DNA of 64,000 nt from Opitutales bacterium (lineage in GTDB: Bacteria; Verrucomicrobiota; Verrucomicrobiia; Opitutales; UBA953): the NCBI GenBank assembly GCA_024697185.1, contig JAILGB010000025.1:611-64610 (forward strand). The letters run 5' to 3'. Below, piece after piece: positions 1,686 through 64,000 of this stretch. The translations under genes were made by a program, and so were the position numbers. Positions within the stretch are counted from its first letter, which is position 1; each line of letters starts with the position of its first letter. The notes under the pieces were generated by a model, which was not told where the DNA came from, ran no database searches, and saw only the letters and a list, made by a program, of their open reading frames with translations.

Positions 1686-2073
1686 TGTTGTGGCGGCGGT
1701 GATTGTGGTGGAAGGGGAGATCCTCTGCATGCGGCGGGGGAAGGGGAAGGCTGCTGAAACGGATTACAAATGGGAGTTTCCGGGCGGAAAAATCGAAAAC
1801 GGCGAAACGCCGCAGGCGGCGCTGATACGCGAGATCCGCGAGGAAATGGATTATAAAATCGTTCCCGTCGAACGCGTCGCTGTCGCGGATTATAAATACC
1901 CGGATTTTACAATTTCCTTGGACGCCTGGATCTGCAGCGCGGACAAGTGCGATTTCAAACTGCTCGAACACATCGATCACCGCTGGCTAAAACCCGAGGA
2001 ACTGAATTCTCTCGACTGGGCTGCCGCCGATCTCGCCATCGTGCAAGCCTTGCAAAAACGATTCACGAATTAG
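1669..2073 (+). CDS. NUDIX hydrolase (MutT / CTP pyrophosphohydrolase-like)
   Basis: Nudix box GGKIENGETPQAALIREIREEMDY (GX5EX7REUXEEXGU). ATG at 1669 overlaps the upstream stop by 17 nt. GC content is native-like. Confidence 0.85.
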   Translation: MNKHYNVVAAVIVVEGEILCMRRGKGKAAETDYKWEFPGGKIENGETPQAALIREIREEMDYKIVPVERVAVADYKYPDFTISLDAWICSADKCDFKLLEHIDHRWLKPEELNSLDWAAADLAIVQALQKRFTN

Positions 2074-2425
2074 AAAATTTCGTGGGTTAAATCAGCGGGA
2101 ACGCAGGAACGGGAACGGTGTGTCGCGGGAACGTGTTTTTAGGATTCACGGATTTTAGGATTTAAGAGATTTTTGTTTTGGATTTACGGGAACGCTATGC
2201 GGGATAGCGGGAATTCCCCAAAAAATGGTTGTGGCTTTATGTCAAAAATAAAAAGCCCGCGTTCCCGCAGTGCCGTTCCCGCAGTTCGCGCTCTTTGCGA
2301 GATTGTTTTTGGCGGGAACGGGATTTTTTCGAAAAATATTGCGTTTTTTTTTTTCTGTATTAGGATTTTGGTGTTGTCAGAAATTTGACAGCGATTTTTT
2401 AAGAATCTCAATAAGATACAAAATT

Positions 2426-3289
2426 ATGAATAAATATATCTCATCTATGGCGGTTTTCGCGTTTGCGGGAACGACTTTTCTTAATGCTCAAACGGCACCG
2501 GATCAAGAGGAATTCGTAGTAGTCAAAGTCCCGCGTTCGCTTCTTCAAAAGAACTCCCAAACGGCACAGGATCAAGAGGAATTCGTGGTAGTCGGCGAAG
2601 CTCCGAAAGAAGAAGCGGCTCCGGTTGCTCCCCAACGCCGCCGTCTCCGGCGAGAGTCCCCGCGCGAAGCCCCGAAAGAAGTGGCGGCTCCGGTTGCTCC
2701 GGTCGTGGAAGAAGCCGTTTACAACGGTTTCATGACGGTAGAAGGCTTTTATGCGGCGGCAAATAATAAAATCGATAAAGATATTGACAAAAAACTCAAT
2801 ATCGGCGGTCTTTGGATGACGGCCGGCCGCAAGTTTGAATTGGATCCGACACTCTCCTTCGATCTCGCCGGGATCTTCGCTGTCGGCGGCGGTTTTTACA
2901 ACGAAAAGAGACCTACAAATGAAGAACGATATATCCAAGCGGATGGTTTGCTCGGAATCCAGCCGTCTCTCACGGTTAATCTCGGCGATCATTTTTCGCT
3001 CAGCGGCGGATTGATGGCGGGATTGGATGTGCGCAGCATGAGATATAGATATTCGGGCTATATAGGTTGGCAGCATAGAATTGTCAACGACACCGACACG
3101 AGATGTGGCGCTTTTTACGGCTCGTTTCTAAAAGCGGATGTAAAATTCACAAAACGTTTTTCTCTGACGGCATCAGCGCGCTATATGGGAACGACGGTGC
3201 AAAACGAATTTGAAGTGGCAGGCGTAAGCTGGCAAACAGAAAAAACAAATTACGCCGTCGTCACTGTCGGCTTTAAATTCGCGTTTTAA
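2426..3289 (+). CDS. outer-membrane beta-barrel protein with a tandem-repeat Pro/Glu-rich linker
   Basis: Signal peptide MNKYISSMAVFAFAGTTFLNA from the ATG at 2426. Alternating beta-strand-like C-terminal half ending in the typical OMP terminus VGFKFAF. The N-terminal extension in the ORF track (2270) looks non-coding. Confidence 0.6.
   Translation: MNKYISSMAVFAFAGTTFLNAQTAPDQEEFVVVKVPRSLLQKNSQTAQDQEEFVVVGEAPKEEAAPVAPQRRRLRRESPREAPKEVAAPVAPVVEEAVYNGFMTVEGFYAAANNKIDKDIDKKLNIGGLWMTAGRKFELDPTLSFDLAGIFAVGGGFYNEKRPTNEERYIQADGLLGIQPSLTVNLGDHFSLSGGLMAGLDVRSMRYRYSGYIGWQHRIVNDTDTRCGAFYGSFLKADVKFTKRFSLTASARYMGTTVQNEFEVAGVSWQTEKTNYAVVTVGFKFAF
2489..2700 (+). repeat. two pairs of in-frame direct repeats with 69-nt period inside the OMP gene
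   Basis: 2489-2524 vs 2558-2593 (36 nt, 2 mismatches). 2603-2631 vs 2672-2700 (29 nt, 2 mismatches). They encode TA(P/Q)DQEEFVVV and PKE(E/V)AAPVAP. Confidence 0.85.
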
Positions 3290-3320
3290 GACCGCTTTAA
3301 TTTAAAAAATCAATTTTTGC

Positions 3321-3357
3321 CGTTCCCGTGAGACATTGTTTCGCGGGAACGTTTTTT
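3321..3357 (+). terminator. rho-independent terminator built from an inverted pair of the genome word
   Basis: CGTTCCCG (3321-3328) / CGGGAACG (3344-3351) stem, 15-nt loop, then TTTTTT. Lies 32 nt after the OMP stop. Confidence 0.65.
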
Positions 3358-3414
3358 AGGATTTGCGGGCGAGTTTTGTTGTGTTAAAATCTACTTATCG
3401 AACCCCTGATATTT

Positions 3415-9400: not shown

Positions 9401-10921
9401 TTATTCCCACTCGATAGATGCCGGCGGCTTGGTCGAGATATCGTAGAGAACGCGATTGATGCCTTTGACCTCGTTTAGGATGCGGTTTGAAACTTCGCGC
9501 AAAAGCGGGATCGGGAGCTCGACCCAGTCCGCCGTCATTGCGTCTTCGGAGACGATGGCACGGAGATTGGTTGCAAACTCGTAAGAGCGTTCGTCGCCCT
9601 TGACGCCGACCGTTTTAACGGGAATCAATCCGGCATAAGCCTGCCAGCATTTGTCATACCAGCCGTATTTGCGGAGGGTCGAAATGAAAATGGCGTCGCA
9701 ATCGCGAATAATGTCGAGGCGTTCCCGCGAAACGGCGCCCGGGCAGCGCACCGCCAAGCCCGGTCCCGGGAACGGATGACGCCAGAGAATGTCGTGGGGA
9801 ATGCCCATCGACGCACCGAGTTCGCGAACTTCATCTTTGAAGAGTTCCGCCAAAGGCTCGAGGACTTTGCCTTGTTTTTGCAGTTCGAGCACTCGTTCGA
9901 CGCGATTGTGGTGCGTCTTGATGACGGAAGCTTTGGACTTGGCGTTGGACGCCGACTCGATCACATCGGGATAAAGCGTTCCCTGCGCGAGCATCTCGGC
10001 ATTGCCGACAGCGTCCCAAAAGACATCGATGAAAAGTCCGCCGATAATGCGACGTTTTTTCTCGGGATCGGCTTCGCCGGCGAGGGCGGTCAAAAAGCGT
10101 TCCGAAGCATCAACCGTCTCAATCGCGACGCCCATCCGTTCAAAGTTTGCCTTGACCTCTGCAGCCTCGTTTTTGCGGAGCAGACCGTTATCGACAAAAA
10201 TCGCGCGCATTTTGACGCCCGCTTCGTGCAGGAGAACTGCGAGAACGGTGGAATCGACACCGCCGGAAACACCGCAGACGACCTGCTTGTCACCGACGCG
10301 CTCACGGATTTCGGCAATCATTTGTTTTTTGAAATCGCCGATATCAAATTTTGCCAAGCCTTCCGCCGTATTCAAAAAGTTTTTCAAAATCGTCCGTCCT
10401 TCGTGCGAATGGGTGACTTCGGGATGGAACTGAATCCCCCACATTTTGTCAGCCCAACGCAAGCTCACGGGAACGCCCTCGGCGTTTTTGGCGATGATCT
10501 GGCAGCCTTCCGCGAGATGATCGACGGTGTCCGAGTGACTCATCCACACTTGCGAGCCGCTTGTGACGCCGGCGTAGAGAGGATCGACAGGCTCGACAGG
10601 GACGAGAGCCGCCGGACCGTATTCGCGCTTGTTGGAGGCGCGGACGCTGCCGCCGTGCTTGATGTTGAGCAACTGCATGCCGTAGCAGACGCCGAGCACG
10701 GGAACGCCAAAACTTTTGAGCCAGGCGAAATCAATGTCCGGCGCGTCGGCATCCGTCGTACTTTTGGGACCGCCCGAGAGGATGATCGCTCCCGGATCCT
10801 TGATTTGCTCGAGATCCTCGAGCGCATAGAGTTTTGACTTAAAGCCCAATTCGCGCACGCGGCGCACAATCAATTGTGTGTATTGGGATCCGAAATCGAT
10901 GACGGCGGTTATTTTTTCCAT
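9401..10921 (-). CDS. guaA: GMP synthase (glutamine-hydrolysing)
   Basis: GATase domain (GVCYGMQ, HPE), PP-loop SGGVDS, C-terminal ...PPASIEWE. Confidence 0.95.
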   Translation of the reverse strand: MEKITAVIDFGSQYTQLIVRRVRELGFKSKLYALEDLEQIKDPGAIILSGGPKSTTDADAPDIDFAWLKSFGVPVLGVCYGMQLLNIKHGGSVRASNKREYGPAALVPVEPVDPLYAGVTSGSQVWMSHSDTVDHLAEGCQIIAKNAEGVPVSLRWADKMWGIQFHPEVTHSHEGRTILKNFLNTAEGLAKFDIGDFKKQMIAEIRERVGDKQVVCGVSGGVDSTVLAVLLHEAGVKMRAIFVDNGLLRKNEAAEVKANFERMGVAIETVDASERFLTALAGEADPEKKRRIIGGLFIDVFWDAVGNAEMLAQGTLYPDVIESASNAKSKASVIKTHHNRVERVLELQKQGKVLEPLAELFKDEVRELGASMGIPHDILWRHPFPGPGLAVRCPGAVSRERLDIIRDCDAIFISTLRKYGWYDKCWQAYAGLIPVKTVGVKGDERSYEFATNLRAIVSEDAMTADWVELPIPLLREVSNRILNEVKGINRVLYDISTKPPASIEWE

Positions 10922-15981: not shown

Positions 15982-15997
15982 AATTTTTTAATTATAA

Positions 15998-16056
15998 CAA
16001 TTGTTAGAGTCAGTTCTCAAATTTTAATCCGCCGTTCCCGCGGCGATGGCTTCATT
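15998..16056. repeat. left copy of a direct repeat (duplicated rph 3' end)
   Basis: Core 16007-16040 GAGTCAGTTCTCAAATTTTAATCCGCCGTTCCCG matches 16999-17032 with 1 mismatch. Weaker similarity continues on both sides. Confidence 0.85.
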
Positions 16057-16767
16057 TTTTTGTTTGATATTTTGTTTAAATAATTTGTTTGCGCGTTTTG
16101 AATCGTATTTATCAGGGAGCGGTAGGACTTTCTTTTTGATTTGATTTTTTTGTTCAATGACATATTCGATCCAATCTTCTGTTGTTACATTTAAAAACAT
16201 TGGCATCGGTTCGTTTAAACCATCGCTTGCATTTATCCATGTTTTTAAATCATCATTGTAAAAGAAATCAAAAGTATTTTTCGTTTCCCATAAACCATAA
16301 TTTCTATTGCTACACCAAAATTGTGGAAAAACTCCAGAAATTTTAAAATATCCATCATCGGTAATTGAAAATGGCGTTCTCCCAAATAATAATTTAGAAA
16401 AAAGTTCTTTTTTTGAAACAATTAAATCTTCAAAGGCATAAGGATTTATATCCACGCCAACAGAATTCCAAAGACTTTTCAAACATTTTGCGGTTTCTGT
16501 AAGAAAAATTTCTTTCTTGTTGGTCTTATAATGGGAAAGCGAATTTTCCAATGCAGTTTCAGGCGTATTCTTTTTTTGAAAATAGAGCGCCGCAAGTGAA
16601 TTCCCATAAGAGCCATACGAAACACAAATGACCCATCGCTTATCGTTGTGTTGCATCAATAAATATTGTGTAGATCCCTGTTTAATAGGGATTATTTTAT
16701 CTTTTATTGTGTCTGCATAAACGCAAGGGGAGATTAAAAGAAAAATAAAAATTATAATCGATTTCAT
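16024..16767 (-). CDS. hypothetical exported protein carried on an AT-rich insertion
   Basis: Signal peptide MKSIIIFIFLLISPCVYA. AT-rich with no genome word inside. The last ~8 codons (AIAAGTAD*) come from the duplicated rph end (AILTGMAD*). Confidence 0.5.
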   Translation of the reverse strand: MKSIIIFIFLLISPCVYADTIKDKIIPIKQGSTQYLLMQHNDKRWVICVSYGSYGNSLAALYFQKKNTPETALENSLSHYKTNKKEIFLTETAKCLKSLWNSVGVDINPYAFEDLIVSKKELFSKLLFGRTPFSITDDGYFKISGVFPQFWCSNRNYGLWETKNTFDFFYNDDLKTWINASDGLNEPMPMFLNVTTEDWIEYVIEQKNQIKKKVLPLPDKYDSKRANKLFKQNIKQKNEAIAAGTAD

Positions 16768-16770
16768 AGT

Positions 16771-16986
16771 TATTCTTTATCGATTGAGACTTTGAACAGA
16801 ATGTGTTCGAGCCGAAGGGAAGGGATAATCGGGATCTTCTCCTTCAATAGGGGCTATTACAGAATCTCCAAGGTAAAAAGTATAGTTTTTTATCATTAGA
16901 TTAGCATTGCAGCCAGAATCGCCATAAACAGTTGTAATTGTTTCACTTTCAATTTCTGTTATATTTTGAATTAAAAGCGCAATTTC
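16771..16986 (-). pseudogene. 5'-truncated ORF fragment inside the insertion
   Basis: The minus-strand frame is open from just after the rph stop region (...IALLIQNITEIESETITTVYGDSGCNANLMIKNYTFYLGDSVIAPIEGEDPDYPFPSARTHSVQSLNR*). It has no plausible start at its 5' end. Confidence 0.3.
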
Positions 16987-16989
16987 AAA

Positions 16990-17048
16990 AAATTGTCGGA
17001 GTCAGTTCTCAAATTTTAATCCGCCATTCCCGTGAGGATCGCTTTTTG
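16990..17048. repeat. right copy of the direct repeat (authentic rph 3' end)
   Basis: See 15998-16056. Confidence 0.85.
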
Positions 17049-43430: not shown

Positions 43431-43724
43431 TCAATCATCGGATCGACGCCAAGCGGAAAGCGAAATCAGCTTGCGATCAATACAATCGCGATTTTCATAA
43501 TAATAAATCGCCAAACGCAATGCGGGCAGGGCAATTTTGCTCTCTGCCATAAAATCCACCTTCTGTATCTCCCTGAACAAACTCTCGGCGGAACGTCCTT
43601 GCAACTCAAAGAGGTCATGATAGCCCGCATCCAAAAGCCAACGGGCAACTTTTACCGGCATATTGGGAACATGCATAAAAGAACTCAAAACTGCTTCTTG
43701 ATCAATCTTTTTGCTCGAACTCAT
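43431..43724 (-). CDS. small helix-hairpin-helix-like protein
   Basis: 97 aa. The segment MHVPNMPVKVARWLLDAGYHDLFELQGRSAESLF resembles an HhH motif. Assignment is weak. Confidence 0.35.
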   Translation of the reverse strand: MSSSKKIDQEAVLSSFMHVPNMPVKVARWLLDAGYHDLFELQGRSAESLFREIQKVDFMAESKIALPALRLAIYYYENRDCIDRKLISLSAWRRSDD

Positions 43725-50045: not shown

Positions 50046-50069
50046 TTTCGGGAACGTTCCCGCAAAGCC

Positions 50070-50390: not shown

Positions 50391-50639
50391 AACTGTGTTT
50401 TCCTGTTAAATTTTAAAGATTTTTTTGATTTTAAACTGGACTTTCATTATAAATTCCCGTTCCCGCAAGAGCAATATCATTCATTCCCGGACAAAAATCG
50501 AAAGACACGACTCGGGAACGACAAAAAAAAATGATATTTTTGGTTTTTTAAAAAAATTAAACGCCCTCGACTCAAATAAAATTGCGGCGGGAACGAAGAA
50601 TCTTTTTAATGGTAAATGTCAGGTTTTTGTAAATTTGCC

Positions 50640-53600
50640 ATGTATTTGAAACAATTGGTCATCAACGGCTTCAAAAGTTTTGCCGATCGGACGCGCATTG
50701 AACTGCGTCCCGGCATTGTTGCGATTGTCGGCCCCAACGGTTGTGGCAAATCCAACATCGTTGACGCGATTCGCTGGGTTTTGGGCGAACAAAGCGCCAA
50801 AGCCCTTCGCGGCGGGAACATGCACGATGTCATTTTTTCGGGAACGGACAAACGCAAAGCCCTCTCCTTTTGCGAAGTCGAACTCGTTTTTGCCGATTGC
50901 GAAAAAGACTTGGGAACGGCGTTTCACGAAATCTCCATTCTGCGCCGAGTCTCCCGCGACGATTCCTCGGAATATTTTCTCAACGGCAAAATCTGCCGCC
51001 TAAAAGACATTCAGCGGCTTTTTATGGATACAGGCGTCGGGCGCGTCTCCTATTCCTTCATGGTCCAGGGACAAATCGACCAGGTGCTCTCCGCCAATCC
51101 CGCCGAACGGCGCGCGCTTTTTGAAGAGGCTGCGGGCATCACGCGTTACAAGACACAACGGAAAGAAGCGCTCGGAAAACTGGCGCTCGTCGATCAAAAT
51201 CTCTCGCGGGTGACCGACGTTCTCGACGAACTCACCCGGCAAATCAACACCCTCAAACGACAGGCGGCAAAGGCGCTGCGCTACAAACGCCTCCGCCATC
51301 GCCTGACCTGCCTCGACAAGGCAAACCAGGCCTTTCTCTTCGCCGAACACCGCAACGCCGTCACAGAACTCGCCCGCGAAGCGCAAACCTTGCGGGAACG
51401 CCTCAACACCCTCCAAGACGCCCTCGCCCAACGCGAACAGACACTCGCAGAGTCCAAAGTCCGCCGCGGAGAACTCCTCGCAAAAATCGAAGAACAGCAA
51501 CAACAGATTTTCTCAACACGCTCTGCAAAAGAATCGACGGAAAACAACATCAAATACTCCGACGCGCGCATTCGGGATCTCGACGAACGCAACTTGGGAA
51601 TCGAACAGGAAATCGCCGGCATGCGTTCCCGCCAGGGCGAACTTGAAGCCCGCATCGCCGGCGGAGGCGACGAACAGGCGAAACACGCCGGAGATTTGAG
51701 TTCTGTGGAAAATCTTTTCCGCGCCCGCCAAGATGAGTTCGAAAAAGCCTCCAATGCCCTAAACGCGACAGAGTCCGCCCTCGCCAAAAACCGCGAAGCA
51801 CTGCTGTTGGCAGAAAACGAAATCACGCGTTCCCGCGCCAGTGTCTCCAAGCTCGAACTCGATTTGCGCTCCTCCGAAATCCGCCACACGGAACTCGCCA
51901 ACCGCATCGCCCAAACGCGCAACGAGCAAAACGCCCTGCGTTCCCGCCACGAAGAAGCCCAAGCCTTCGCCGAACAACATCGACAAAGCCAGGCGCAAAT
52001 CCAAAGCGAAATCGCAGCCGCTAAGGAGGAAGCCAAAAACCTTCTCATAAGATTTAGAGAAAAACAACAGGAGATCACCGCCCTCGACCGCCAGGTCGCG
52101 CGAACAGCGGCGCAACTGACAATGCTCAAACAGCTGCAGGCAAAATTTGAAGGCTTTAGCGAAAGCGCCAAAAGCATCCTCAAAGGCGAGATCCCGGAAA
52201 TCGTTCCCGCGGGAACGGCAAAAACCTTGAACGCCCTGCTCGAAATCGAAGAGAATGTTTACGCCGGAGCCATCGAACTTTTGCTCGAAAGCAACAGCGG
52301 CACAATCTGCCTTCCCGAGGGAACGCCGATCACACGACTGATCGAAACGCTCAACGGGAAAAATCTCGACGCCGTCCAAATCTCCCTGCCGGAACTCTGC
52401 AAAAACATTCCCGGACAAAACGACAAACAAAATCTGCCGGAATTTATCGTTCCCGCCAACCGTCTGGTCAAAGTCCGCGATGCAAATTTCGAAAACCAGG
52501 TCCGGACAATTTTGGACCGCTGCTATATTTGCGACGACAGCGGACAATTCCTCCAATTCTGGCGGGAACGCCCCGATTTCGATTTTGTCCTCATCGCCAC
52601 TCTCAACGGCGAACTGATCGACCGGCGGGGAACGCTAAAGACACCCTCCGGACAAAAACAGACAGGCGTCTCGTCATTCCGGCGCGAGGCGGAAATCGCC
52701 GCGCTGGCGAAACTCTCGCAGGCGGAAAATGAAAAACTGACCGAAGCCAACGAAAGCGCAATGGCGATCCAACGGCAAATGGACGAAAACGAAACGCTCG
52801 TCGAAACCCTGCGGACACGAGCCGCAAGCGTCGCCCAGGAACTTTCCGCCGTCAGCGCAGACGAACGCAACGCCGCAACGGCACTCGAAAACAATATCGC
52901 CGCTCTCGAAAAAATGACGGCGCAACTCGAAGATTTGGAGCGGGAACGGGAACGCAACACCCAAAAAATGAGCGAAGCCAAAAATCTCCTCGAATCCGGA
53001 GAATCCACAATCGGCAAACTCAAAGAGACAATCGCACAAAAAGAAAACGAAATCACAACACTTCGCGGGAACGCGGATGCCGCCCGGGAAGCCGCCAACG
53101 AAATAAAATTCGAACTCGCCAAGAAAAAACAGCAGCTCGAACTCATCGAACAGGAAGTGCAAAATATCCGTTCCCAAGTCTCCGAAATGCAACATCGCAT
53201 CGAGACCCGCGAAAACGAAAAACGCAACAACCAAAACCAACGTGACGCCTACAGCGAACAAATCGAAAAAGATAAGGCAGCCGTCCTAAAACTCCAAGAA
53301 CAGCTCGACAACGGGAACGCCGTTCTCGAAAACATCCGCAACGATTGCCGCAATGCCGACCTCGCCATCGAAACGCTCGACCAGTCCATGAGCGCCGAAC
53401 GCGAAGAGGTTCACAAAAACGAAAACACCCTTAAAGACCGCGAAATCAAACTTTCAGAAGAAACCTTGTTGTGCAAAAACATCGCCGAAAAAATCTCCGG
53501 TGACTACCAGACCGATATCACCTCCATCGATTGGAAACGGGAACTGTGGCGCGCGGACGAAAATTTTGAAAGCAAAATCAATTTCGCCGAACTCGAAGAC

Positions 53601-54419
53601 GGCGACGAGGAAAATCCGGACGGGAACATTGAGCCGCCCTCTAAAAAACATCTCAATGTCGAGCCCGGCGAAGAAGACTTGGCAGCGATGGACTCGACCG
53701 ACTGGCAGCCGCTTCGCCGAGAAATCGAGGATTTGCGGGAACGCCTCCGCGCATTTGGAGCCATCAACCACGCCGCCATCGACGAATATCTCGAAGTGCG
53801 GGAACGCTTTAATTTCACAAAAAAACAATCCGACGACCTTTGGACCGCCAAAAACGAACTTACGGCTGCCATCGACGAAATTAACACGACCTCCCAAAAA
53901 CTTTTCACCGAAACCTTCGAACAGATCCGCAAAAATTTTGCCTTCACATTCGAACGGCTTTTCCACGGCGGCGAAAGCGATCTCACCCTCGTGCAATCCG
54001 ACGATGTTCTCGAATCCGGCATCGAAATCGTCGCCCGCCCGCCAGGAACAAAATTGCGCAGCATCTCTCTGCTCTCCGGCGGGCAGCGCACGATGACAGC
54101 CGTCGCCCTGCTTTTCGCCATCTACATGGTCAAGCCCTCGCCGTTTTGCGTGCTCGACGAACTCGACGCTCCGCTCGACGACGCCAATGTCGGACGCTTT
54201 ACCGACATCGTCAAAGAATTTACAAAATACTCCCAGTTCCTCGTCGTCACCCACAACAAAAAGACCGTCTCCGCAGCCAACATGATCTACGGCGTCACGA
54301 TGCAGGAACGCGGTGTCACCCAAGTCCTCTCGATGAGATTCAATCACGACAACGGCAAAACCGAAAACGCCACAAGCCCGGAGCTCGGCAAAGGCGGCTC
54401 CTTCAATATGGCGCGCTAA
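50640..54419 (+). CDS. smc: chromosome segregation protein SMC
   Basis: [27 protein letters not shown], long coiled coils, hinge, [16 protein letters not shown] and [11 protein letters not shown]. Confidence 0.95.
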
Positions 54420-55466: not shown

Positions 55467-57236
<1,770 letters not shown>

Positions 57237-57426: not shown

Positions 57427-57491
57427 GAATGAGGTTTCCGGCAACCCCGCCGGAATAGCGATTTGTTAAAAACAATAGAAACAGGTGATTT

Positions 57492-57623
57492 ATGTCTGAT
57501 CAAGATCCGTCGTTGGAGCAATTGACTCCGTTCCCGGGAACATGGGTTCCGACGGGGAATGTTCCCGCGGATTCACTCCAGTGGTCATTATTCCTGAATA
57601 GCTTGTTTTATAATCTGTACTAA
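57492..57623 (+). pseudogene. decayed RHS-core junction stub (43 codons)
   Basis: ...LTPFPGTWVPTGNVPADSLQWSLFLNSLFYNLY* is homologous to FTPAGTPSRTTIPANPLQWSSEIYDSELALVYYNY of the orphan at 58975 onwards. DNA repeat 57562-57586 vs 59008-59032. Confidence 0.5.
57562..57586 (+). repeat. RHS junction repeat, copy 1
   Basis: TTCCCGCGGATTCACTCCAGTGGTC vs TTCCCGCGAATCCGCTCCAGTGGTC at 59008-59032 (3 mismatches). Confidence 0.75.
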
Positions 57624-57685
57624 AATCCTAAAAAATATAATGTATTAGTTTTAAGAATCCTTTCCCGTCACTTTTGGATTAGAAT

Positions 57686-58297
57686 ATGAGAGCTGTTGAT
57701 ACGGAATCGACCCTGTTTTGCTTGATTGTAAACATTGGATTTGTAGTTTTTGCAGGGATCTATGCAAATCCGACCTCTGTCGTACCTTACATTTATCAAG
57801 CATTTCTTTTATTTCTTTCAAATTGGCTTTGGATGCACTCGACAGCTGTACTTGGAGCTTTTTTTTGGATAAAAAGTAAGCTAAGGCGGAAGGATTATGA
57901 TGACGATCTTTCATGGAAATGGAGTGTGAGACTTGCTGTGTTTTCCGTTTTTTTCCCACCACTTCTCTTAGGAGGAATTTTTTGGTATTTAGGGGGCGAA
58001 GTGGTACATGATTGTATTCTTTCATCGATAGTTGTTGCAATGCTTCAGGTGCTTCTGGCATTGATTGGTTTTCTTCGTCCTCTTGCCACATGTACCCTGC
58101 AGGAAGAGCCATTATTCAATCCTCCACTTTTTAAGCGAGAAGATGGAGAGAAAATCAGCTCGTGGGAATTTCTTCTTCCGCGACCAATCATTAATGCTTT
58201 AAGAAATGCAAAGAGAACCCTAAAAAAAAGCAAATTGGGAGCTGGTATAGTTTCAGTTGTTGAAACATATTTCCGTTTGTTTGGGAGTCCGCTTTAG
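57686..58297 (+). CDS. hypothetical multi-pass membrane protein (possible immunity protein)
   Basis: 4-5 hydrophobic helices. AT-rich and free of the genome word. Same strand as the RHS cassettes. Competes with the antisense ORF 57651-58112. Confidence 0.4.
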   Translation: MRAVDTESTLFCLIVNIGFVVFAGIYANPTSVVPYIYQAFLLFLSNWLWMHSTAVLGAFFWIKSKLRRKDYDDDLSWKWSVRLAVFSVFFPPLLLGGIFWYLGGEVVHDCILSSIVVAMLQVLLALIGFLRPLATCTLQEEPLFNPPLFKREDGEKISSWEFLLPRPIINALRNAKRTLKKSKLGAGIVSVVETYFRLFGSPL

Positions 58298-58432
58298 GTA
58301 CAAAAAATGAGAAAATCTTATGCTTTCGACAACAGAACTTGGCAGCTAGCAATCAGGGAGCCGAATCACAAAAAGCCAAGACAATAACAAAACTTATTGA
58401 GCAAGCTAAACGCCTTGGAGAAAACTATTGAA

Positions 58433-58924
58433 ATGAAAAAAGCAGACTATATTGAGTTAAAAAAAGAGATTTCTTTGCAGATGAAAGAGAAAAACTATGT
58501 TATTGCACAGCGTATGATTTTAAAAGCACTGGAAGAATTTCCATATGACACTGATTTGCTTTTGAAAAAATACGTTTGCGCTTGGTTTGTTCCTTCAGAT
58601 GCTTTTGTTGAAGATGTTGCCAAATCAACATTAGAGGTTGCGGCAGAACTGAGTCCAAACTCCGTTGCTAATCAAATTGAATTAGGAAATCACTATTATG
58701 CCGTGTTAGAGGATTTCGAACGTGCAAAAGTATGTTTCCGAAAAGCTGTAGATATTGCGCTACAACAAATCCGAGAGTCTTATCTCGGATTGATGAAAAT
58801 TTCCATTGATGAATATAGCAAAGAGGAATACCAGAAAGTTAAAGAAGAAATTAGCCTTTTATCGGAAGATGTTCGGAACTACTGCAACATAAATGCAGAG
58901 ATTGAAGTATTGGAAGAAGATTAA
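58433..58924 (+). CDS. hypothetical helical (TPR-like) protein, possible immunity protein
   Basis: GGAG lies 9-10 nt before the ATG at 58433. All-helical composition with a TPR-like segment (NQIELGNHYYAVLEDFERAKVCFRKAVDIA). Confidence 0.4.
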   Translation: MKKADYIELKKEISLQMKEKNYVIAQRMILKALEEFPYDTDLLLKKYVCAWFVPSDAFVEDVAKSTLEVAAELSPNSVANQIELGNHYYAVLEDFERAKVCFRKAVDIALQQIRESYLGLMKISIDEYSKEEYQKVKEEISLLSEDVRNYCNINAEIEVLEED

Positions 58925-59687
58925 AACACAAAGTTGTATGTATAAAAAATCCCAAAAGACGTGCGATATAGTCTTTACGCCGGCGGGAACGCCGTCCAGA
59001 ACAACCATTCCCGCGAATCCGCTCCAGTGGTCGTCCGAAATCTACGATTCCGAGCTCGCCCTTGTCTATTACAACTACCGCCATTATTCCCCAATCCTTG
59101 GTCGCTGGCTCTCCCGCGACCCAATCGAAGAACAAGGCGGGCTGAATTTGTATTGCTTTTTAAAAAATGATTTCTTTAAAACAGATTATTTAGGTTTAAA
59201 ATACATTGAACGACTATGTCGAGAACTAATTCAAAAAATTGAGAGTTTTTCAAATTCTTTAAAAAAAGAAATAGATAAATACGATCCAATAAAAGACGGA
59301 AAAGGTGGGTTTATCCATGCACATGGAATAACAAAACCGGGTGGTCATTATAAGGAAATAAAAGACTTCCAAAATGGACTAAAAAATAAACTTAAAAAAT
59401 GGAAAGATGTTTGTAAAGACGATGGTGATCCGCCTTGTTCGCCTTTCCCTTATCCTAGATTTGCAGATCAACTTGCAAATAAATATATTATAGAACCCCA
59501 ATATTCAATAGAATCAAATGATGATACAATATGGATTGCGATTTTATCAGGAGTGACGGTATCAATTGTTGCTGTTGTAATTGCAGGAAATGCAGGTCCA
59601 CAAGCATTGGCTCCAGAAGAAATTATAACGATTCCTGTTGCTGCAATTGTCGGAGGAATTATAGGCGCAATTAAATTTATCGACTAA
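58893..59687 (+). CDS. orphan RHS C-terminal cassette: end of RHS core plus an uncharacterised toxin domain
   Basis: YDSELALVYYNYRHYSPILGRWLSRDPIEEQGGLNLYCFLKNDFFKTDYLGL matches the RHS-repeat-associated core end (YD..tGLyYyr.RYYdP..GRflS.DPig..GG.NLY.yv.NnP....DP.GL). A ~165-aa unique tail follows and ends in two Gly/Ala-rich TM helices. The true start is uncertain (homology begins about 58975). Confidence 0.7.
   Translation: MQRLKYWKKIKTQSCMYKKSQKTCDIVFTPAGTPSRTTIPANPLQWSSEIYDSELALVYYNYRHYSPILGRWLSRDPIEEQGGLNLYCFLKNDFFKTDYLGLKYIERLCRELIQKIESFSNSLKKEIDKYDPIKDGKGGFIHAHGITKPGGHYKEIKDFQNGLKNKLKKWKDVCKDDGDPPCSPFPYPRFADQLANKYIIEPQYSIESNDDTIWIAILSGVTVSIVAVVIAGNAGPQALAPEEIITIPVAAIVGGIIGAIKFID
59008..59032 (+). 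repeat. RHS junction repeat, copy 2
   Basis: See 57562-57586. Confidence 0.75.
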
Positions 59688-59891
59688 GTAAAATTTCTAC
59701 TTTATGGAAAATAATTATAAGCATAGAGCAATTTTAATTTTTGTTAAAAAACTTATTTTTAGGTTTTTCCCGACTAAAGATTTAATAAAAAAAATTGATA
59801 GGAATTCAGAGAGTTTATAGTATTTTTTCTATTCTCATTTTTTTTCGGGAAGATTTATTCGGAAAACTATTCCGTTATTTTATCAGAACCT

Positions 59892-60482
59892 TTGATTTCC
59901 TCATTTGATCCTTTGGATAAAAAATTGGGCTGTCTTTTTGTCGACATTGATGAGATAAACAAAGAAATATTAAAAATGCTTGAAATTGGATCGACAGAAT
60001 ATAAAATTGACGGAGTAGTTAAACTTTTTTTTGATCCAACGGATGGAATTGTTTTATGTTTTGCGGTTGAACATTGCGAGTATTGGTATGAACGTGGAAG
60101 CAATTCGTATCCTTTTATTTTATTAGGAAATATTTTTAATTTTGTTGAAAAAGAAATGGAAAAAAGTTCAAAAAACAAATGTGTTTTGGATATTATTCCG
60201 AGTTCGATTTCAAGTGATAAAAAAATTTGGGCGATAAAGAATCTTGCTTTTCATCCTGAATTTACAGAAGAAATACATATGAAATTCTGCCGTCAGATTA
60301 TTTCTCAAAACGATCCTCTTTTGAAAATTGCGTATTTGGAGGCATTTGAAAAATCCCATTTAAAATTTTTATATTCAGATTCTATTCTTCCTTTTTTTGT
60401 AAATGATTCTGATGAAAATGTTCGTTTAAAAGCTAAAAATCTTCTTAACGATGCAAATAATTTTCATGGTTGTTGTTTTTAG
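59892..60482 (+). CDS. hypothetical protein, candidate cognate immunity protein
   Basis: First sizeable ORF downstream of the RHS toxin tail on the same strand. AT-rich. HEAT-like C-terminal segment DSDENVRLKAKNLL. Start uncertain (TTG at 59892 or ATG at 59976). Confidence 0.4.
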   Translation: MISSFDPLDKKLGCLFVDIDEINKEILKMLEIGSTEYKIDGVVKLFFDPTDGIVLCFAVEHCEYWYERGSNSYPFILLGNIFNFVEKEMEKSSKNKCVLDIIPSSISSDKKIWAIKNLAFHPEFTEEIHMKFCRQIISQNDPLLKIAYLEAFEKSHLKFLYSDSILPFFVNDSDENVRLKAKNLLNDANNFHGCCF

Positions 60483-60688
60483 GAACAATGTTAAAAGGTG
60501 GATAAATTTCTTGAAATCATATATAAAAAAAGAGAACGGGGGGCTCTCCGCGACGGGACGGCTTTCTGTCGCTTCTTACGGGAACGTTGACTTTGCTAAC
60601 AATTACCTCGCGGGAACGAATCTTTTGGCGGGCGTGGCAAGTTCGTTTCTTCCTTTTAAGTTAGCCGCAGTCTCGCAATCGGAAAACT

Positions 60689-61633: not shown

Positions 61634-61739
61634 TGCTAAAAATTATCGTTGCGGCGGGAACGCCGATCATTCTTATAAAGCCATTATAGATTAAAATTTG
61701 TGTTCCCGCGAAAATTTACCGAATACTTTTTAGGCGGAC

Positions 61740-61776
61740 AAAAAAAACGTTCCCGCGAGGATTTTCTCACGGGAAC
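61740..61776 (-). terminator. glgC terminator built from an inverted pair of the genome word
   Basis: On the minus strand: CGTTCCCGTGAGAAAATCCTCGCGGGAACG followed by TTTTTTT. Nearly the same module as the terminator at 3321-3357. Confidence 0.7.
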
Positions 61777-61801
61777 GATTTGTTTTTTGGCGGGAACGCG
61801 C

Positions 61802-63100
61802 TTAGTCGTCGATTTCGCCGATGACTGTTCCCGGAGGAATAATCGCGTCCTTTTTGGTGATGAGCACGCCGTCCTTCACATAGATTTCCGGAGTCTCAAA
61901 ACCGTCTTTGACGCCTTTGGGGGAGAGTCGGCAATTTTTGCCGATTCGAGTGCCCTTATCGATGATGGCGTCGCGAATCACACAATTTTCTCCGATACCG
62001 ATAATCGGTTTTCCCGTCTTGCGGCATTCGGCGACATCGTTGATGTTTTCGTAATAGTCGGCGCCCATGTAAACGACGTTTTTGAGATCGCAACCGGAAT
62101 CGACGACGGAACGGACGCCGATGACGCAGCGATTAAGTTTGGAATTGCTGATAATGGCACCGTCGCCCATAACGACATGTTTAATCGTGCAACCGTTGAG
62201 TTTTGCCGGCGGCAAAAGACGGTCGTGCGTATAAATCGGTGCGACATCGTCAAAGAAATCGAACGGGGGAACATCGTCTGTCAGCGAAAGATTGGTCTCC
62301 CAAAACGCGCGGACGGTTCCGATATCTTCCCAATAATCGTCAAAGACATGGGCAACGAGTTTTTTCTTGCCAAGCAAGCCCGGGATGACTTCCTTGCCGA
62401 AATCCTTCATATCGTTGTCGAGGGCTTCGCAAAGGAATTTCCCGGAGAAGATATAGATGCCCATAGACGCGAGGCAGTATTCCGCATCGCTCTTGTCCGA
62501 GAGCGCCTCACGCAGTTTGCCGCGAACGACAAGCGATTGGATGACTGCCGGGTCTTTCGGCTTTTCGACAAATTCGACAATCTCCGAATTTTCGTTGACG
62601 CGCATGACACCGAGAGCGGAAACTTCTTTTTTGGGCATTGCCTTTGCCGCGATTGTGACATCGGCATTTTCCGCGATGTGCTGATCGAGCATTTTCTTAA
62701 AATCCATTCGGAAAAGTTGGTCTCCCGAAAGAATCAGAACATAGTCGTTAGGCTGGAGATTGAAGTGTTGAAGATTGTGGCGGACGGCATCGGCGGTTCC
62801 CTGATACCAGGATTCGCTTTCCATATTTTGCTCTGCCGCAAGAATATCGACATAGCCTTTGCCGAAGGAATCAAATTTGTAAGTGCGCTGAATATGACTA
62901 TGCAGCGACGCGGTGTTAAACTGCGTGAGCACACAGATTGTGTTGAATCCGGAGTTCAAACAGTTGCTGATCGGGATGTCGATCAAACGATATTTGCCCG
63001 CCAAGGGAACGGCAGGTTTGCAACGAGCTGCGGTTAGAGGATACAGACGGGTGCCACGCCCTCCGCCCATAATTACACAAACAACTTTAGATTTTGCCAT
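61802..63100 (-). CDS. glgC: glucose-1-phosphate adenylyltransferase
   Basis: VCVIMGGGRGTRLYPLT, WYQGTADAV, and a C-terminal left-handed beta-helix region. Confidence 0.9.
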   Translation of the reverse strand: MAKSKVVCVIMGGGRGTRLYPLTAARCKPAVPLAGKYRLIDIPISNCLNSGFNTICVLTQFNTASLHSHIQRTYKFDSFGKGYVDILAAEQNMESESWYQGTADAVRHNLQHFNLQPNDYVLILSGDQLFRMDFKKMLDQHIAENADVTIAAKAMPKKEVSALGVMRVNENSEIVEFVEKPKDPAVIQSLVVRGKLREALSDKSDAEYCLASMGIYIFSGKFLCEALDNDMKDFGKEVIPGLLGKKKLVAHVFDDYWEDIGTVRAFWETNLSLTDDVPPFDFFDDVAPIYTHDRLLPPAKLNGCTIKHVVMGDGAIISNSKLNRCVIGVRSVVDSGCDLKNVVYMGADYYENINDVAECRKTGKPIIGIGENCVIRDAIIDKGTRIGKNCRLSPKGVKDGFETPEIYVKDGVLITKKDAIIPPGTVIGEIDD

Positions 63101-63194
63101 AATTATACTAAAAATCGGGGTTAAAACACTTATAGACTATTCCCGCATAAAATAAATCGCAAGAAAATTCGTCTTTTGTCATTTATCATTTTTT

Positions 63195-64000
63195 TTAAAA
63201 CGGGTCGCCGCCGTCTTCATCGATCCCGTCCCAGTTACGATAATTGTAAGATTTGCCTCCGCCAAAGTCGTGGGAATAATGGACAATCTGACCGAGCCGC
63301 TGATAGGTTTCGGGATTTGCCTCGCGGACAAAACGGCTCAACTCGTAGGTCATCTGGTCGCTAAATCTCGGACATTCGAGGATATAGACCAAGGTCAATT
63401 CATCCTTGGCGCGCGTGCAGGCGACATAAAAAAGCCGCCGCTCCTCATCGACCGTGTCTTCTTCGAGCGAGCGTTTTGACGGGAACAGTTCATCGGAACA
63501 CGACAAAACAAAGACATACGGGAACTCGAGTCCCTTCGCCTGGTGAATCGTCGATAAGCGCACCTTGGGCTCCTCAAAATCGCGTTCCCGCGACTCGATG
63601 TCGCTTCGCGTGTTCCCGGAGTCCATCAGGCTGACTTGTGCGAGAAAATCGGCGAGCGTCTCGTAATTGGAGGCAAAGTCGATCAAGCTGTTCAAATCGT
63701 CACAGCGTTCCCGCCAGTTCGGATAAATCCGTTTCGCAAAGTCGCCATACCATCCTTCGATGCCGATGGCGACGACCATCCTGGGCTCCATGATTTCCTG
63801 AACGCCCTCCCCGTCCGTTCCCGCCGCCTCATCCGCCAAGGCGAACAAATCCGCCTCTTCATTTGCGGGAACGGGATCCGCATCAGGCATTGCCGCCGCC
63901 TCGATTTTCGTTCCCGTCAAGCCTTCATACATATTGTGCAGCGTCAGGACAAAATCCTTAAAATCGTCGAGAGCCGGCGCGGGAACGATTTTTAAAACAG
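63195..64000 (-). CDS. UvrD/Rep/PcrA-family helicase, C-terminal part (continues beyond the window)
   Basis: STIHQAKGLEFPYVFV and RRLFYVACTRAKDELTLVY (motifs V/VI). The frame is open through 64000. Confidence 0.8.
   Translation of the reverse strand, partial: VLKIVPAPALDDFKDFVLTLHNMYEGLTGTKIEAAAMPDADPVPANEEADLFALADEAAGTDGEGVQEIMEPRMVVAIGIEGWYGDFAKRIYPNWRERCDDLNSLIDFASNYETLADFLAQVSLMDSGNTRSDIESRERDFEEPKVRLSTIHQAKGLEFPYVFVLSCSDELFPSKRSLEEDTVDEERRLFYVACTRAKDELTLVYILECPRFSDQMTYELSRFVREANPETYQRLGQIVHYSHDFGGGKSYNYRNWDGIDEDGGDPF

What the first reader, a model, noticed from the sequence alone, without database searches (positions are those of the whole stretch)
1860..63990. Hyper-abundant genome word (G)CGGGAACG(C) / (G)CGTTCCCG(C): an uptake-signal-like oligomer saturating the native DNA
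By eye I tally about 200 copies of the 7-mer core. About 110 are GGGAACG and about 95 are CGTTCCC on the + strand, roughly one per 300 bp. A random 7-mer on both strands of 64 kb would give about 8 (2 x 64000 / 4^7). The flanks extend the consensus to GCGGGAACG(C). The word occurs in every reading frame of genes on both strands, encoded as AGT, RER, GN., RSR, VPA or .FP. In SMC alone: FSGT, LGTA, LRERL, MRSRQ, TRSRA, IVPAGTA, WRERP, LERERER, LRGNA. It is even denser between genes, with 7 copies in 2095-2330. It often forms inverted pairs. I see no orientation bias: about 57 vs 41 left of dnaA and about 56 vs 54 right of it. It is absent from the AT-rich islets. Over-representation, both orientations, tolerance inside genes and inverted pairs acting as terminators are the established behaviour of Neisseria DUS and Pasteurellaceae USS. 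Here the word is several-fold denser, and I know of no described uptake signal for this kind of organism.
Basis: partly seen in the sequence, partly recalled or inferred. Interest (0 to 1): 0.85.

Follow-up and report, generated by a model that had tools for sequence, protein, structure and literature searches.

The report
Hyper-abundant 8-base word in gut Verrucomicrobia
The 8-base word CGGGAACG occurs about once every 330 bases, roughly 80-100 times more often than chance, across a whole clade of uncultured gut Verrucomicrobia; its placement matches the genomic hallmarks of the 'DNA uptake sequences' of Neisseria and Haemophilus, which suggests but does not prove that these bacteria preferentially take up their own kind's DNA.

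Summary
The true core is the 8-mer CGGGAACG/CGTTCCCG, with 105 + 89 = 194 copies in 64 kb against about 2.5 expected.

- **Enrichment survives codon-aware nulls.** There are 151 copies in genes, against 13.4 after a synonymous-codon shuffle and 3.2 after a codon-order shuffle. 79% of all peptide sites that could encode the word do encode it.
- **No longer element.** Flanks add only a weak G before and C after, so this is not a REP or MITE.
- **No polarity.** I found no replichore-type strand skew.
- **Clade-wide.** The same word is the top 8-mer in five related loci with GC 46-62%, including Candidatus Spyradosoma. It is absent from Akkermansia and other Verrucomicrobia.
- **DNA-level origin.** Orthologue alignments show the word is made by codon choice at conserved VPV, FPG and RER peptides. 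Word positions are conserved 60% against 9% for control 8-mers.

The testable genomic hallmarks of DUS/USS are mostly met: both orientations, all six frames with a frame bias, 2-6-fold tripeptide enrichment, 3-fold intergenic excess, inverted pairs forming the strongest terminators, and depletion in AT-rich inserts. Even spacing is not met.

Uptake bias, competence genes and a receptor could not be tested. Best reading (about 0.5): an uptake-signal-type word spread by molecular drive. I found no prior description.

The parts
1860..63987 (.). 194 dispersed copies of the 8-mer CGGGAACG (105 on +, 89 on -). 151 lie inside genes and 43 are intergenic or straddle gene ends.
2096..2320 (.). Intergenic cluster of 7 copies: 2096+, 2110+, 2126+, 2187+, 2260-, 2274-, 2313+. 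It lies between the NUDIX gene and the next ORF.
3321..3351 (+). Terminator-like hairpin built from an inverted word pair, CGTTCCCGTGAGACATTGTTTCGCGGGAACG followed by TTTTTT. It has a 14-bp stem and sits 3' of ORF 2270-3289.
23978..24007 (.). Hairpin GGCGGGAACGGCATTTTTCGCGTTCCCGCC followed by ATTTTTT. It lies between the convergent genes 22784-23956(+) and 24030-27260(-).
28771..28838 (.). Long-loop inverted pair GTCGCGGGAACGCCGG ... CCGGCGTTCCCGCGAC, between the MatE gene and the 3' end of dnaA.
31117..31156 (.). Bidirectional terminator-like hairpin AAAAAGCGTTCCCGTG...CACGGGAACGCTTTTT with a 16-17 bp stem, 3' of ORF 31176-32150(-).
40719..40755 (.). Bidirectional terminator-like hairpin AAAAGAGCGTTCCCGCAACTTTCGGGAACGCTCTTTT with a 15-bp stem, between the convergent genes 38959-40677(+) and glgP 40778-43321(-).
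35941..35956 (.). Abutting inverted pair CGTTCCCGCGGGAACG inside rho. The same 16-mer occurs at 52202-52217 inside smc.
50049..50062 (.). Overlapping inverted pair CGGGAACGTTCCCG, immediately upstream of the recR start.
50616..54419 (+). smc gene carrying 15 copies in several frames. 15 of its 17 word-compatible peptide sites use the word.
9401..10921 (-). guaA with 4 copies. Alignment with word-less Akkermansia and other orthologues shows the word is created by synonymous codon choice at conserved VPV, FPG and RER peptides.
21..1685 (+). AT-rich, word-free gene: a Schlafen-like helicase matching the PADLOC candidate defence protein PDC-S41. It serves as a contrast region and is probably acquired.
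15996..17044 (.). AT-rich insert (ORF 16024-16767, GC 0.37) bracketed by a 57-nt direct repeat. It carries a single word, located in the repeat.
57600..60500 (.). AT-rich block (GC 0.36) of unannotated small ORFs with a single word, at 58984.
17758..21882 (-). 1374-aa protein with a prepilin-like N-terminus (weak PilX_N hit). It is a possible type IV pilus or T2SS minor pseudopilin. It is a lead only, because the family also occurs in word-less lineages.
43431..43724 (-). 97-aa helix-hairpin-helix protein with weak Cdd1 and TfoX_C matches. It is a lead only.

Best explanation
CGGGAACG, with weak flanks giving gCGGGAACGc, is a clade-specific 'self' word of the DUS/USS type (DNA uptake enhancing sequences).

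**Proposed mechanism (inferred).** A surface DNA receptor of a type IV pilus-dependent transformation machinery binds double-stranded DNA carrying the word. Word-bearing fragments from relatives are then imported and recombined more often. Any mutation that creates or improves a word is over-transmitted through this molecular drive, and selection on proteins opposes it.

**What this predicts, and what is shown.** The word should fill every position where it costs little. It fills intergenic DNA, where inverted pairs double as terminators. It fills synonymous options at compatible peptides, which are now 79% saturated. It then spreads through tolerated amino-acid changes, which shows as 2-6-fold enrichment of AGT, VPx, RER and RSR peptides. 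DNA that arrived recently lacks it.

**Shown:** the abundance, its DNA-level origin, its conservation across the clade, its symmetry and its distribution.

**Inferred:** that the biased step is DNA uptake, that these organisms are competent, and that a receptor exists.
For: 1. **Enrichment.** About 80-100-fold in the window and 41-224-fold over base composition in six genomes of 46-62% GC, so it is not compositional.
2. **DNA-level cause.** 151 genic copies against 13.4 (synonymous shuffle) and 3.2 (codon-order shuffle). 148 of 187 compatible peptide sites are realised.
3. **Codon choice.** In guaA, the word-bearing lineages use GTT-CCC-G, CCG-TTC-CCG and CGG-GAA-CG where Akkermansia and others use other synonymous codons for the same residues.
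4. **Uptake-sequence properties (PMC2817400) met here.**
   - Non-palindromic, with both orientations equal: 105:89 overall, sense 76 against antisense 75.
   - No sign change across dnaA.
   - Coding under-representation: 2.6 against 8.4 per kb.
   - Frame bias: 97 of 151 copies fall in two frames.
   - Tripeptide enrichment of 2.3-12-fold against reversed peptides and about 2.7-6-fold against outgroup proteomes.
   - The three strongest terminator-like hairpins are inverted word pairs.
5. **Perfect against decayed copies.** 513 perfect copies against 489 copies summed over all 24 one-off variants in 168 kb. Transitions dominate the one-offs, as expected from decay balanced by drive.
6. **Positional conservation.** Between the window and L001, 60% of word positions are retained against 9% for control 8-mers. 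Where the peptide is conserved, the figures are 94% against 19%.
7. **Depletion in probable foreign DNA.** AT-rich islets are depleted, and an Asp-Al_Ex gene absent from the syntenic relative has none.
8. **Clade-limited.** Present down to 40% identity of a fast-evolving marker protein, and absent in Akkermansia-type and GC-70% sister lineages.
9. **Precedent.** Hyper-abundant words with this profile are experimentally tied to transformation in Neisseriaceae and Pasteurellaceae. HIP1 has recently been tied to it too (10.1101/2024.09.10.611283; 10.64898/2026.06.24.733823).
Against: - No uptake or transformation data exist for these uncultured organisms.
- Competence genes (comEC, comEA, dprA, pilQ, pilT) and a receptor could not be searched in whole genomes. 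The window shows only weak pilin-like and TfoX_C-like hits, and the pilin-like family is also present in word-less relatives.
- Density is 3-5 times that of DUS/USS.
- Only about 10 of 194 copies lie in terminator hairpins, whereas about half of DUS/USS do (10.1101/2025.10.24.684340).
- Spacing is more clustered than random (CV 1.28 against 0.99), whereas DUS/USS are reported as more even than random.
- Inverted pairs are not enriched over direct pairs.
- Some 20-kb segments show a moderate orientation imbalance: L001 37:62, L328 40:23, window 1-16 kb 38:15. Whole-genome polarity is therefore not excluded.
Confidence: 0.5

Rival explanations
1. A HIP1-like word with an intracellular role. It would be a recognition site for an orphan DNA methyltransferase, a recombination or repair factor (a non-polar Chi-like stimulator) or another genome-maintenance protein. 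Selection or biased gene conversion inside the cell would maintain it, independently of any uptake specificity.
For: [quoted passage not shown]
- Positional conservation above control 8-mers is the same kind of evidence used to argue selection on HIP1.
- The word contains GAAC/GTTC and two CpGs, so it could carry a modification. This rests on my own knowledge and is untested.
- The clustered spacing and low terminator share differ from DUS/USS.
Against: - The word is not palindromic, unlike HIP1.
- No methyltransferase or matching repair gene lies in the window.
- No single one-off neighbour is strongly depleted, as a VSR-type single-position drive would produce. Such a drive also cannot give roughly 80-fold enrichment (inference).
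- Per-site selection on thousands of sites is a weak force compared with a transmission drive (inference).
- HIP1 itself is now proposed to act in transformation, so this rival partly merges with the main explanation.
Confidence: 0.2
2. A genome-wide 'self' mark or architectural site. A nucleoid-associated protein, a condensin-loading factor or a defence nuclease would read word density to tell native DNA from foreign DNA, or to organise the chromosome.
For: - The word is depleted in AT-rich, probably foreign inserts, one of which encodes a candidate defence protein.
- It is present on both strands everywhere in native DNA.
- It is conserved across a deep clade while GC content drifts from 46% to 62%.
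Against: - No known system of this kind uses an 8-mer at about 3 per kb (own knowledge).
- Nothing in the window points to a reader protein.
- Depletion in foreign DNA is equally expected under any native-DNA drive.
- The one phage contig that looked enriched turned out to be compositional. There is therefore no evidence that phages mimic the mark.
Confidence: 0.15
3. A by-product of context-dependent mutation or mismatch-repair bias, or of codon and amino-acid usage, with no signalling role.
For: High-order Markov expectations approach the observed count. The favoured frames use fairly common codons such as GCG, ACG, GTT and CCC.
Against: - Codon-aware shuffles give 3-13 copies against 151 observed.
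- The same exact 8-mer dominates in genomes of 46-62% GC with different codon usage, and it is absent in close outgroups of similar GC.
- It is enriched even more in non-coding DNA.
- The high-order Markov match is circular, because the sub-words are made by the word itself.
Confidence: 0.05
4. Part of a longer dispersed element (REP, MITE or CRISPR-like), or a polar Chi- or KOPS-type sequence.
For: Some intergenic clusters and hairpins exist. The three-word scan of metagenomes mostly retrieved local tandem arrays containing the word, in unrelated contigs.
Against: - The logo has no information beyond +/-1-2 nt.
- All repeat families are just the word with decaying flanks.
- 78% of copies lie inside genes in all frames.
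- There is no sign switch of orientation across dnaA in the window or in L001.
Confidence: 0.03

Closest known systems
Neisseriaceae DUS (10-12-mer) and Pasteurellaceae USS (9-mer core), together called DNA uptake enhancing sequences
   Same: - A short non-palindromic word, hugely over-represented and found in both orientations.
- Tolerated in all reading frames with a strong frame bias, and it enriches the peptides it encodes.
- Denser between genes, where inverted pairs form terminators.
- Sparse in acquired DNA.
- Shared by a whole family-level clade and absent outside it.
- Perfect copies are about as numerous as all one-off variants together.

(properties as listed in PMC2817400)
   Different: - A different phylum (Verrucomicrobiota, class Opitutia) and an unrelated sequence.
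- An 8-bp core with almost no flank information.
- 3-5 times denser, at about 3 per kb.
- 79% saturation of compatible peptide sites.
- Only about 5% of copies lie in terminators, against roughly half.
- Spacing is clustered rather than even.
- No 'dialects' were seen across the clade, down to 40% identity of a marker protein.
- Uptake bias, receptor and competence are all untested.
Cyanobacterial HIP1 (GCGATCGC)
   Same: - An octamer at about one per gene or denser.
- Phylogenetically broad within one lineage.
- Conserved at orthologous positions far above control octamers.
- Not explained by codon usage.
- Function not settled, although recent preprints link it to natural transformation.
   Different: - HIP1 is a perfect palindrome containing the GATC and CGATCG methyltransferase sites, whereas this word is asymmetric.
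- HIP1 shows 10-90 kb periodicity, which cannot be tested in 64 kb.
- No associated methyltransferase is known here.
Chi and KOPS/AIMS polar octamers
   Same: An over-represented 8-mer read by a DNA-processing machine.
   Different: Those are typically only a few-fold enriched, occur about once per several kb, and are strongly skewed to the leading strand (own knowledge). Here the enrichment is about 80-fold, the density about 3 per kb, and the orientation does not switch across dnaA.

Membership tests
DNA uptake sequences (DUS/USS) | Competent cells preferentially bind and take up DNA carrying the word | not testable with these tools
   Needs uptake or transformation competition assays. The organisms are known only from metagenome assemblies.
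DNA uptake sequences (DUS/USS) | The genome encodes type IV pilus/ComEA/ComEC/DprA machinery and a word-binding receptor (ComP-type minor pilin) | not testable with these tools
   Only 64 kb plus about 100 kb of relatives could be read. There are weak leads only: a PilX_N-like 1374-aa protein (E 4e-4, below the Pfam cut-off) and a TfoX_C/Cdd1-like 97-aa protein. The pilin-like family also occurs in word-less lineages.
DNA uptake sequences (DUS/USS) | A short non-palindromic word, hundreds to thousands of copies per genome, far above expectation | tested here: met
   194 copies in 64 kb against about 2.5 expected, and 513 copies in 168 kb from six genomes.
DNA uptake sequences (DUS/USS) | Similar numbers in both orientations, with no replication or transcription polarity | tested here: met
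   105:89 overall, sense 76 against antisense 75, and no sign change across dnaA. Some 20-kb segments are imbalanced, and no whole-genome test was possible.
DNA uptake sequences (DUS/USS) | Under-represented in coding DNA relative to intergenic DNA | tested here: met
   2.6 per kb in genes against 8.4 per kb between genes.
DNA uptake sequences (DUS/USS) | Intergenic inverted pairs act as transcription terminators | tested here: inconclusive
   The three strongest terminator-like hairpins, plus one more, are inverted word pairs with T-runs at gene 3' ends. Inverted pairs are not enriched over direct pairs (21 against 25), and only about 5% of copies are involved. Termination itself was not measured.
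DNA uptake sequences (DUS/USS) | Reading-frame bias and enrichment of the tripeptides the word encodes | tested here: met
   97 of 151 genic copies fall in two frames. [ATS]GT is enriched 3.0-fold, VP[AVGDE] 2.3-fold, RER 5-fold and RSR 12-fold over reversed peptides, and about 2.7-6-fold over outgroup proteomes.
DNA uptake sequences (DUS/USS) | Spaced more evenly than random | tested here: not met
   Spacing CV is 1.28 against 0.99 +/- 0.07 for random placement. 8 of 64 1-kb bins are empty against 3.1 expected. The clustering reflects the intergenic excess and word-free genes.
DNA uptake sequences (DUS/USS) | Shared by a clade, absent from outgroups, and rare in recently acquired DNA | tested here: met
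   Present in L001, L323, L328, L329 and L330. Absent in L321-L327, L331, L332 and L334. AT-rich inserts are depleted.
HIP1-type highly iterated palindromes | A palindromic octamer embedding methyltransferase sites | tested here: not met
   The reverse complement of CGGGAACG is CGTTCCCG, so it is not a palindrome (sequence itself).
HIP1-type highly iterated palindromes | Density near or above one per gene, and conservation at orthologous positions above control octamers | tested here: met
   1 per 330 bp. 21 of 35 positions are conserved against 9% for controls, and 17 of 18 against 19% where the peptide is conserved.
Chi / KOPS polar sequences | Strong strand skew that switches at the replication origin | tested here: not met
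   54:38 left and 51:51 right of dnaA. L001 shows the same sign on both sides. Caveat: the position of the origin is not proven.
REP / MITE dispersed elements | Copies share a longer conserved sequence or structure beyond the core | tested here: not met
   Information content is about 0 beyond +/-3 nt. The repeat families are only the word plus decaying flanks.

The most novel reading that the evidence does not exclude
The word may not be an uptake signal at all. It could be the mark of an undescribed genome-wide self-recognition or biased-conversion system in gut Verrucomicrobia. Such a system would be an intracellular reader, for repair, recombination, defence or nucleoid organisation, that drives an asymmetric 8-mer to about 80% saturation of every permissive site. 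That is stronger than any documented DUS/USS drive. It would be conserved unchanged while genomic GC drifts from 46% to 62%.
Probability: 0.2. Interest if true: 0.9.

Novelty: new member of a known kind. Interest (0 to 1): 0.78.

Why it matters
**If it is an uptake signal.** It would be the first uptake-signal-type word in the PVC superphylum. Experimentally established examples are currently only Neisseriaceae and Pasteurellaceae, with cyanobacterial HIP1 recently proposed. It would imply that an abundant, uncultured group of animal- and human-gut Verrucomicrobia (relatives of Candidatus Spyradosoma) practise natural transformation biased towards their own DNA.

**Practical consequences.**
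- Adding gCGGGAACGc to constructs may make these organisms genetically tractable.
- Word density is a simple marker for binning their contigs and for flagging horizontally acquired genes.

**Evolutionary interest.** The near-saturation (79% of compatible sites, 2-6-fold distortion of tripeptide usage) is an extreme case of a DNA-level drive reshaping a proteome. It gives a new system for the long-standing debate between drive and selection over uptake sequences and HIP1.

**If it is not an uptake signal.** It would point to an unknown genome-wide recognition system.

Tried and rejected
1. **Scan of viral contigs with a two-word pattern.** It returned mostly chance matches or local repeats. The one dispersed case, L094, is a real phage fragment with portal and terminase genes. 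However, other 8-mers are commoner in it, so its 14 copies are compositional. This gives no evidence for word-bearing phages.
2. **Scan of metagenome contigs with a three-word pattern.** It was unproductive for finding relatives.
3. **Genome-contig scan with DnaA.** It gave only one true relative (L001). The other 79 loci were Actinomycetota and other distant DnaA matches.
4. **Inverted-pair enrichment.** Rejected as a general property.
5. **A VSR-type single-base repair drive.** No specifically depleted neighbour was found.
6. **The giant PilX_N-like protein as a clade-specific receptor candidate.** Rejected as specific, because homologues occur in word-less lineages.
7. **Rfam and tRNA scans of the window.** They found nothing, so the word-dense spacers are not known RNAs.
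8. **DnaA-box search.** Only two near-consensus boxes lie upstream of dnaA, and the total number of matches is not clearly above chance. The origin position therefore stays unproven.
9. **Literature searches.** Searches for the word, for uptake sequences or natural transformation in Verrucomicrobia, and for surveys of abundant octamers found no prior description.

Full report

Yes.
- K-mer ranking shows the sharper unit is the 8-mer CGGGAACG, with 105 copies on the + strand and 89 on the - strand. That is 194 in total, one per 330 bp, and it is the commonest 8-mer of the window.
- Low-order Markov models expect about 2 per strand. A second-order model built after masking the word expects 2.5 for both strands.
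- Markov orders 5-6 'predict' the count, but only because their sub-words are supplied by the word itself. That test is circular.
- A logo of all 193 sites with full flanks shows information only at G(-1), weakly at T(-3) and C(+1, +2), and a mild T-richness 3' of the word. Nothing longer is conserved.
- A repeat search finds only families seeded by the word with decaying flanks. It is a word, not a REP, MITE or CRISPR element.

**2. What is the window?**

It is a bacterial chromosome segment. Genes include dnaA (28858-30243, -), smc, rho, recR, guaA, thiC, glgP, glgC and formate-tetrahydrofolate ligase.
- The nearest genome in the species-representative collection is an 'uncultured Opitutales' MAG from Hadza gut. 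Its DnaA is 67% identical and it is syntenic over about 15 kb.
- A lineage-specific 1374-aa protein places the window among relatives labelled Candidatus Spyradosoma, at 50% and 42% identity. That genus belongs to Verrucomicrobiota, class Opitutia.

**3. Is it more than codon usage or composition?**

Yes.
- 151 of the 194 copies lie in genes, in all six frames. Sense (76) equals antisense (75).
- Shuffling synonymous codons within each gene keeps the protein and the codon usage but leaves 13.4 +/- 3.6 copies. Shuffling codon order leaves 3.2 +/- 1.7.
- Of 187 peptide sites that could encode the word ([ATSP]GT, RER, xGN[GADEV], RSR, [ATSP]FP, xVP[GADEV]), 148 (79%) do so.
- The peptides themselves are enriched 2.3-12-fold over their reversed controls and about 2.7-6-fold over proteins of word-less Verrucomicrobia.
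- A codon alignment of guaA is the clearest picture. At conserved VPV, FPG and RER the two word-bearing lineages write GTT-CCC-G, CCG-TTC-CCG and CGG-GAA-CG. Akkermansia and two other Verrucomicrobia use other synonymous codons for the same residues. A few sites needed K>R or D>N replacements.

**4. How widely is it shared?**

The identical 8-mer is the top 8-mer in five other loci.

| Locus | GC | Copies | Length |
|---|---|---|---|
| L001 | 45.6% | 99 | 21 kb |
| L323 | 57.3% | 30 | 14 kb |
| L328 (Ca. Spyradosoma sp.) | 61.8% | 63 | 24 kb |
| L329 | 51.7% | 72 | 20 kb |
| L330 | 52.4% | 55 | 24 kb |

- Observed over expected from base composition is 41-224.
- The word is at background level (0-5 copies per locus) in Akkermansia muciniphila-type contigs, whose GuaA is 85-87% identical to the window's. 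The same holds for two other Verrucomicrobia and three GC-70% sister contigs.
- No variant 'dialect' was seen.
- Between the window and L001 (proteins 59-92% identical; only half of the codons for identical residues are the same), 21 of 35 window words sit at the same codon position and orientation. That is 60% against 9% for control 8-mers.
- Where the peptide is conserved, the word is conserved in 17 of 18 cases against 19% for controls.
- Lineage-specific words almost always coincide with amino-acid differences. Synonymous capacity therefore looks saturated, and turnover now runs through protein change (inference).

**5. Distribution**
- Intergenic DNA is 3.3 times denser than genes: 8.4 against 2.6 per kb.
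- Pairs within 60 nt are as often direct (25) as inverted (21), so inverted pairing is not a general tendency.
- Even so, the three strongest terminator-like hairpins in the first 60 kb (the part of the window that was scanned) are inverted word pairs flanked by A/T runs at gene 3' ends. They lie at 3321-3351, 31117-31156 and 40719-40755. A fourth lies at 23978-24007.
- Orientation shows no sign switch across dnaA in the window (54:38 and 51:51) or in L001. Some 15-20 kb stretches are imbalanced.
- Spacing is more clustered than random (CV 1.28). The causes are the intergenic excess and several word-free genes.
- dnaA, the OTCase gene and an Asp-Al_Ex transporter gene have no compatible peptides at all. 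thiC has three and uses none.
- AT-rich segments carry 1.4 against 3.3 copies per kb (P = 3e-4). The clearest inserts are nearly word-free:
  - a PDC-S41-type candidate defence gene at 21-1685;
  - an ORF bracketed by a 57-nt direct repeat at 15996-17044;
  - a 3-kb block at 57.6-60.5 kb.
- Perfect copies (513 in 168 kb of six genomes) are as numerous as all 24 one-off variants together (489). Transitions are the commonest one-offs. Positions 2 and 5 are the least tolerant, and 6, 4 and 8 the most. No neighbour is specifically depleted.

**6. Interpretation**

A process acting on DNA, not on protein or RNA, favours this exact asymmetric 8-mer on either strand throughout native DNA of one clade. 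It is strong enough to fill four fifths of the free sites and to distort the proteome.

The only experimentally established process with this signature is biased DNA uptake in natural transformation. That produces the DUS of Neisseriaceae and the USS of Pasteurellaceae by molecular drive (PMC2817400).

Of the genomic properties that paper lists as common to uptake sequences:
- Six are met here: non-palindromic form, both orientations, coding under-representation, dyad terminators, frame bias and tripeptide enrichment.
- One is not met: even spacing.

The differences are quantitative. The word is 3-5 times denser, and about 5% of copies lie in terminators instead of about half (10.1101/2025.10.24.684340).

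The other close analogue is cyanobacterial HIP1. It has the same density and the same excess positional conservation (PMC5861425), but it is a methylated palindrome. Two recent preprints now link HIP1 itself to transformation.

I therefore favour an uptake-signal-type word at about 0.5. The rivals are:
- an intracellular HIP1-like role, about 0.2;
- a self-mark or architectural site, about 0.15;
- mutation or repair bias, or codon usage, about 0.05;
- a longer dispersed element or a polar sequence, about 0.03.

**7. What is not shown**

Uptake preference, competence and a receptor are not shown.
- The window holds only weak leads. One is a 1374-aa protein with a prepilin-like N-terminus (weak PilX_N hit). 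Its family also occurs in word-less lineages and sits beside pseudopilin genes in L328. The other is a 97-aa TfoX_C/Cdd1-like HhH protein.
- A weak replichore polarity cannot be excluded from 64 kb, particularly as the origin is not firmly placed.

**8. Novelty**

Full-text searches found nothing. They covered the word itself, uptake sequences or natural transformation in Verrucomicrobia, and surveys of abundant octamers.

I rate it a new member of a known kind: hyper-abundant genomic self-words of the DUS/USS/HIP1 class. It lies in a phylum where none is described, and its saturation is unusually extreme.

Noticed in passing
window 21-1685 (+): An AT-rich gene for a Schlafen-group-3-like helicase. 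It matches the PADLOC candidate defence protein PDC-S41 almost full length (E 6e-221). It carries no copy of the word and is probably a recently acquired defence gene.
   Followed up: partly
window 15996-17044: The AT-rich ORF 16024-16767 (GC 0.37, no Pfam or PADLOC hit) is bracketed by a 57-nt direct repeat (15996-16052 and 16988-17044, 86% identical). The repeat overlaps the 3' end of the RNase PH gene, which looks like an insertion with target duplication. One repeat copy holds an intact word and the other a decayed one (CCATTCCCGTG).
   Followed up: partly
window 57600-60500: A 3-kb AT-rich block (GC 0.36) of four or five small ORFs with no Pfam or PADLOC match other than a sub-threshold TPR hit (E 0.0085). 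It holds only one word and is probably foreign DNA.
   Followed up: partly
window 38959-40677 (+): An Asp-Al_Ex/TrkA_C transporter gene that is absent from the otherwise syntenic relative L001. It contains no word and no word-compatible peptide, although its GC is normal.
   Followed up: partly
window 55467-57650: thiC has three word-compatible peptide sites and none uses the word, against 79% elsewhere. This may indicate recent acquisition. No TPP riboswitch reached Rfam's gathering score upstream, although the 57237-57530 leader holds 6 words.
   Followed up: partly
window 17758-21882 (-); L328 5148-8438: A 1374-aa protein without Pfam domains except a weak PilX_N-like prepilin N-terminus (KRGFSLVVALV...). 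Homologues of 1200-2000 aa are spread over Verrucomicrobiota. In the Ca. Spyradosoma locus L328 the gene lies next to three N_methyl pseudopilin genes.
   Followed up: partly
window 43431-43724 (-): A 97-aa helix-hairpin-helix protein with borderline matches to Cdd1 (E 6e-6) and to the TfoX C-terminal domain (E 1e-4, just below the cut-off).
   Followed up: no
window 1-64000; 30244-31175: Cumulative GC skew rises to a plateau around 26-40 kb and then falls. It therefore peaks around dnaA, where the usual origin pattern would give a trough. The 930-bp AT-rich spacer upstream of dnaA holds only two DnaA-box-like 9-mers (TTATTCACA). The origin position is therefore uncertain.
   Followed up: partly
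L323 492-8566: In this word-bearing relative, rpoB and the first 1.6 kb of rpoC (5.9 kb in all) contain no word, while the following 8 kb contain 30.
   Followed up: no
window, genome-wide: The one-off variant CGGGATCG, which contains GATC, has 25 copies in the window but only 1 in L001. CGGGAACA is the commonest decay variant in both.
   Followed up: no
window 14347-16083 (+), 45979-47466 (+), 61700-63037 (+): Long ORFs of 445-578 aa lie antisense to genuine genes (FTHFS, the GHMP-kinase and OTCase genes, glgC). They have no Pfam hits and are spurious shadow ORFs that a naive ORF caller would pick.
   Followed up: yes
L265, L243, L259 and many other loci: Unrelated metagenome contigs carry one-orientation tandem arrays containing CGGGAACG, for example 43 copies in 3.7 kb in L265. 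These are local repeats, not the dispersed genome word.
   Followed up: partly
window 34381-36426 (-): Rho is 681 aa, with about 300 extra N-terminal residues before the RNA-binding domain. It carries 8 words, including an abutting inverted pair.
   Followed up: no
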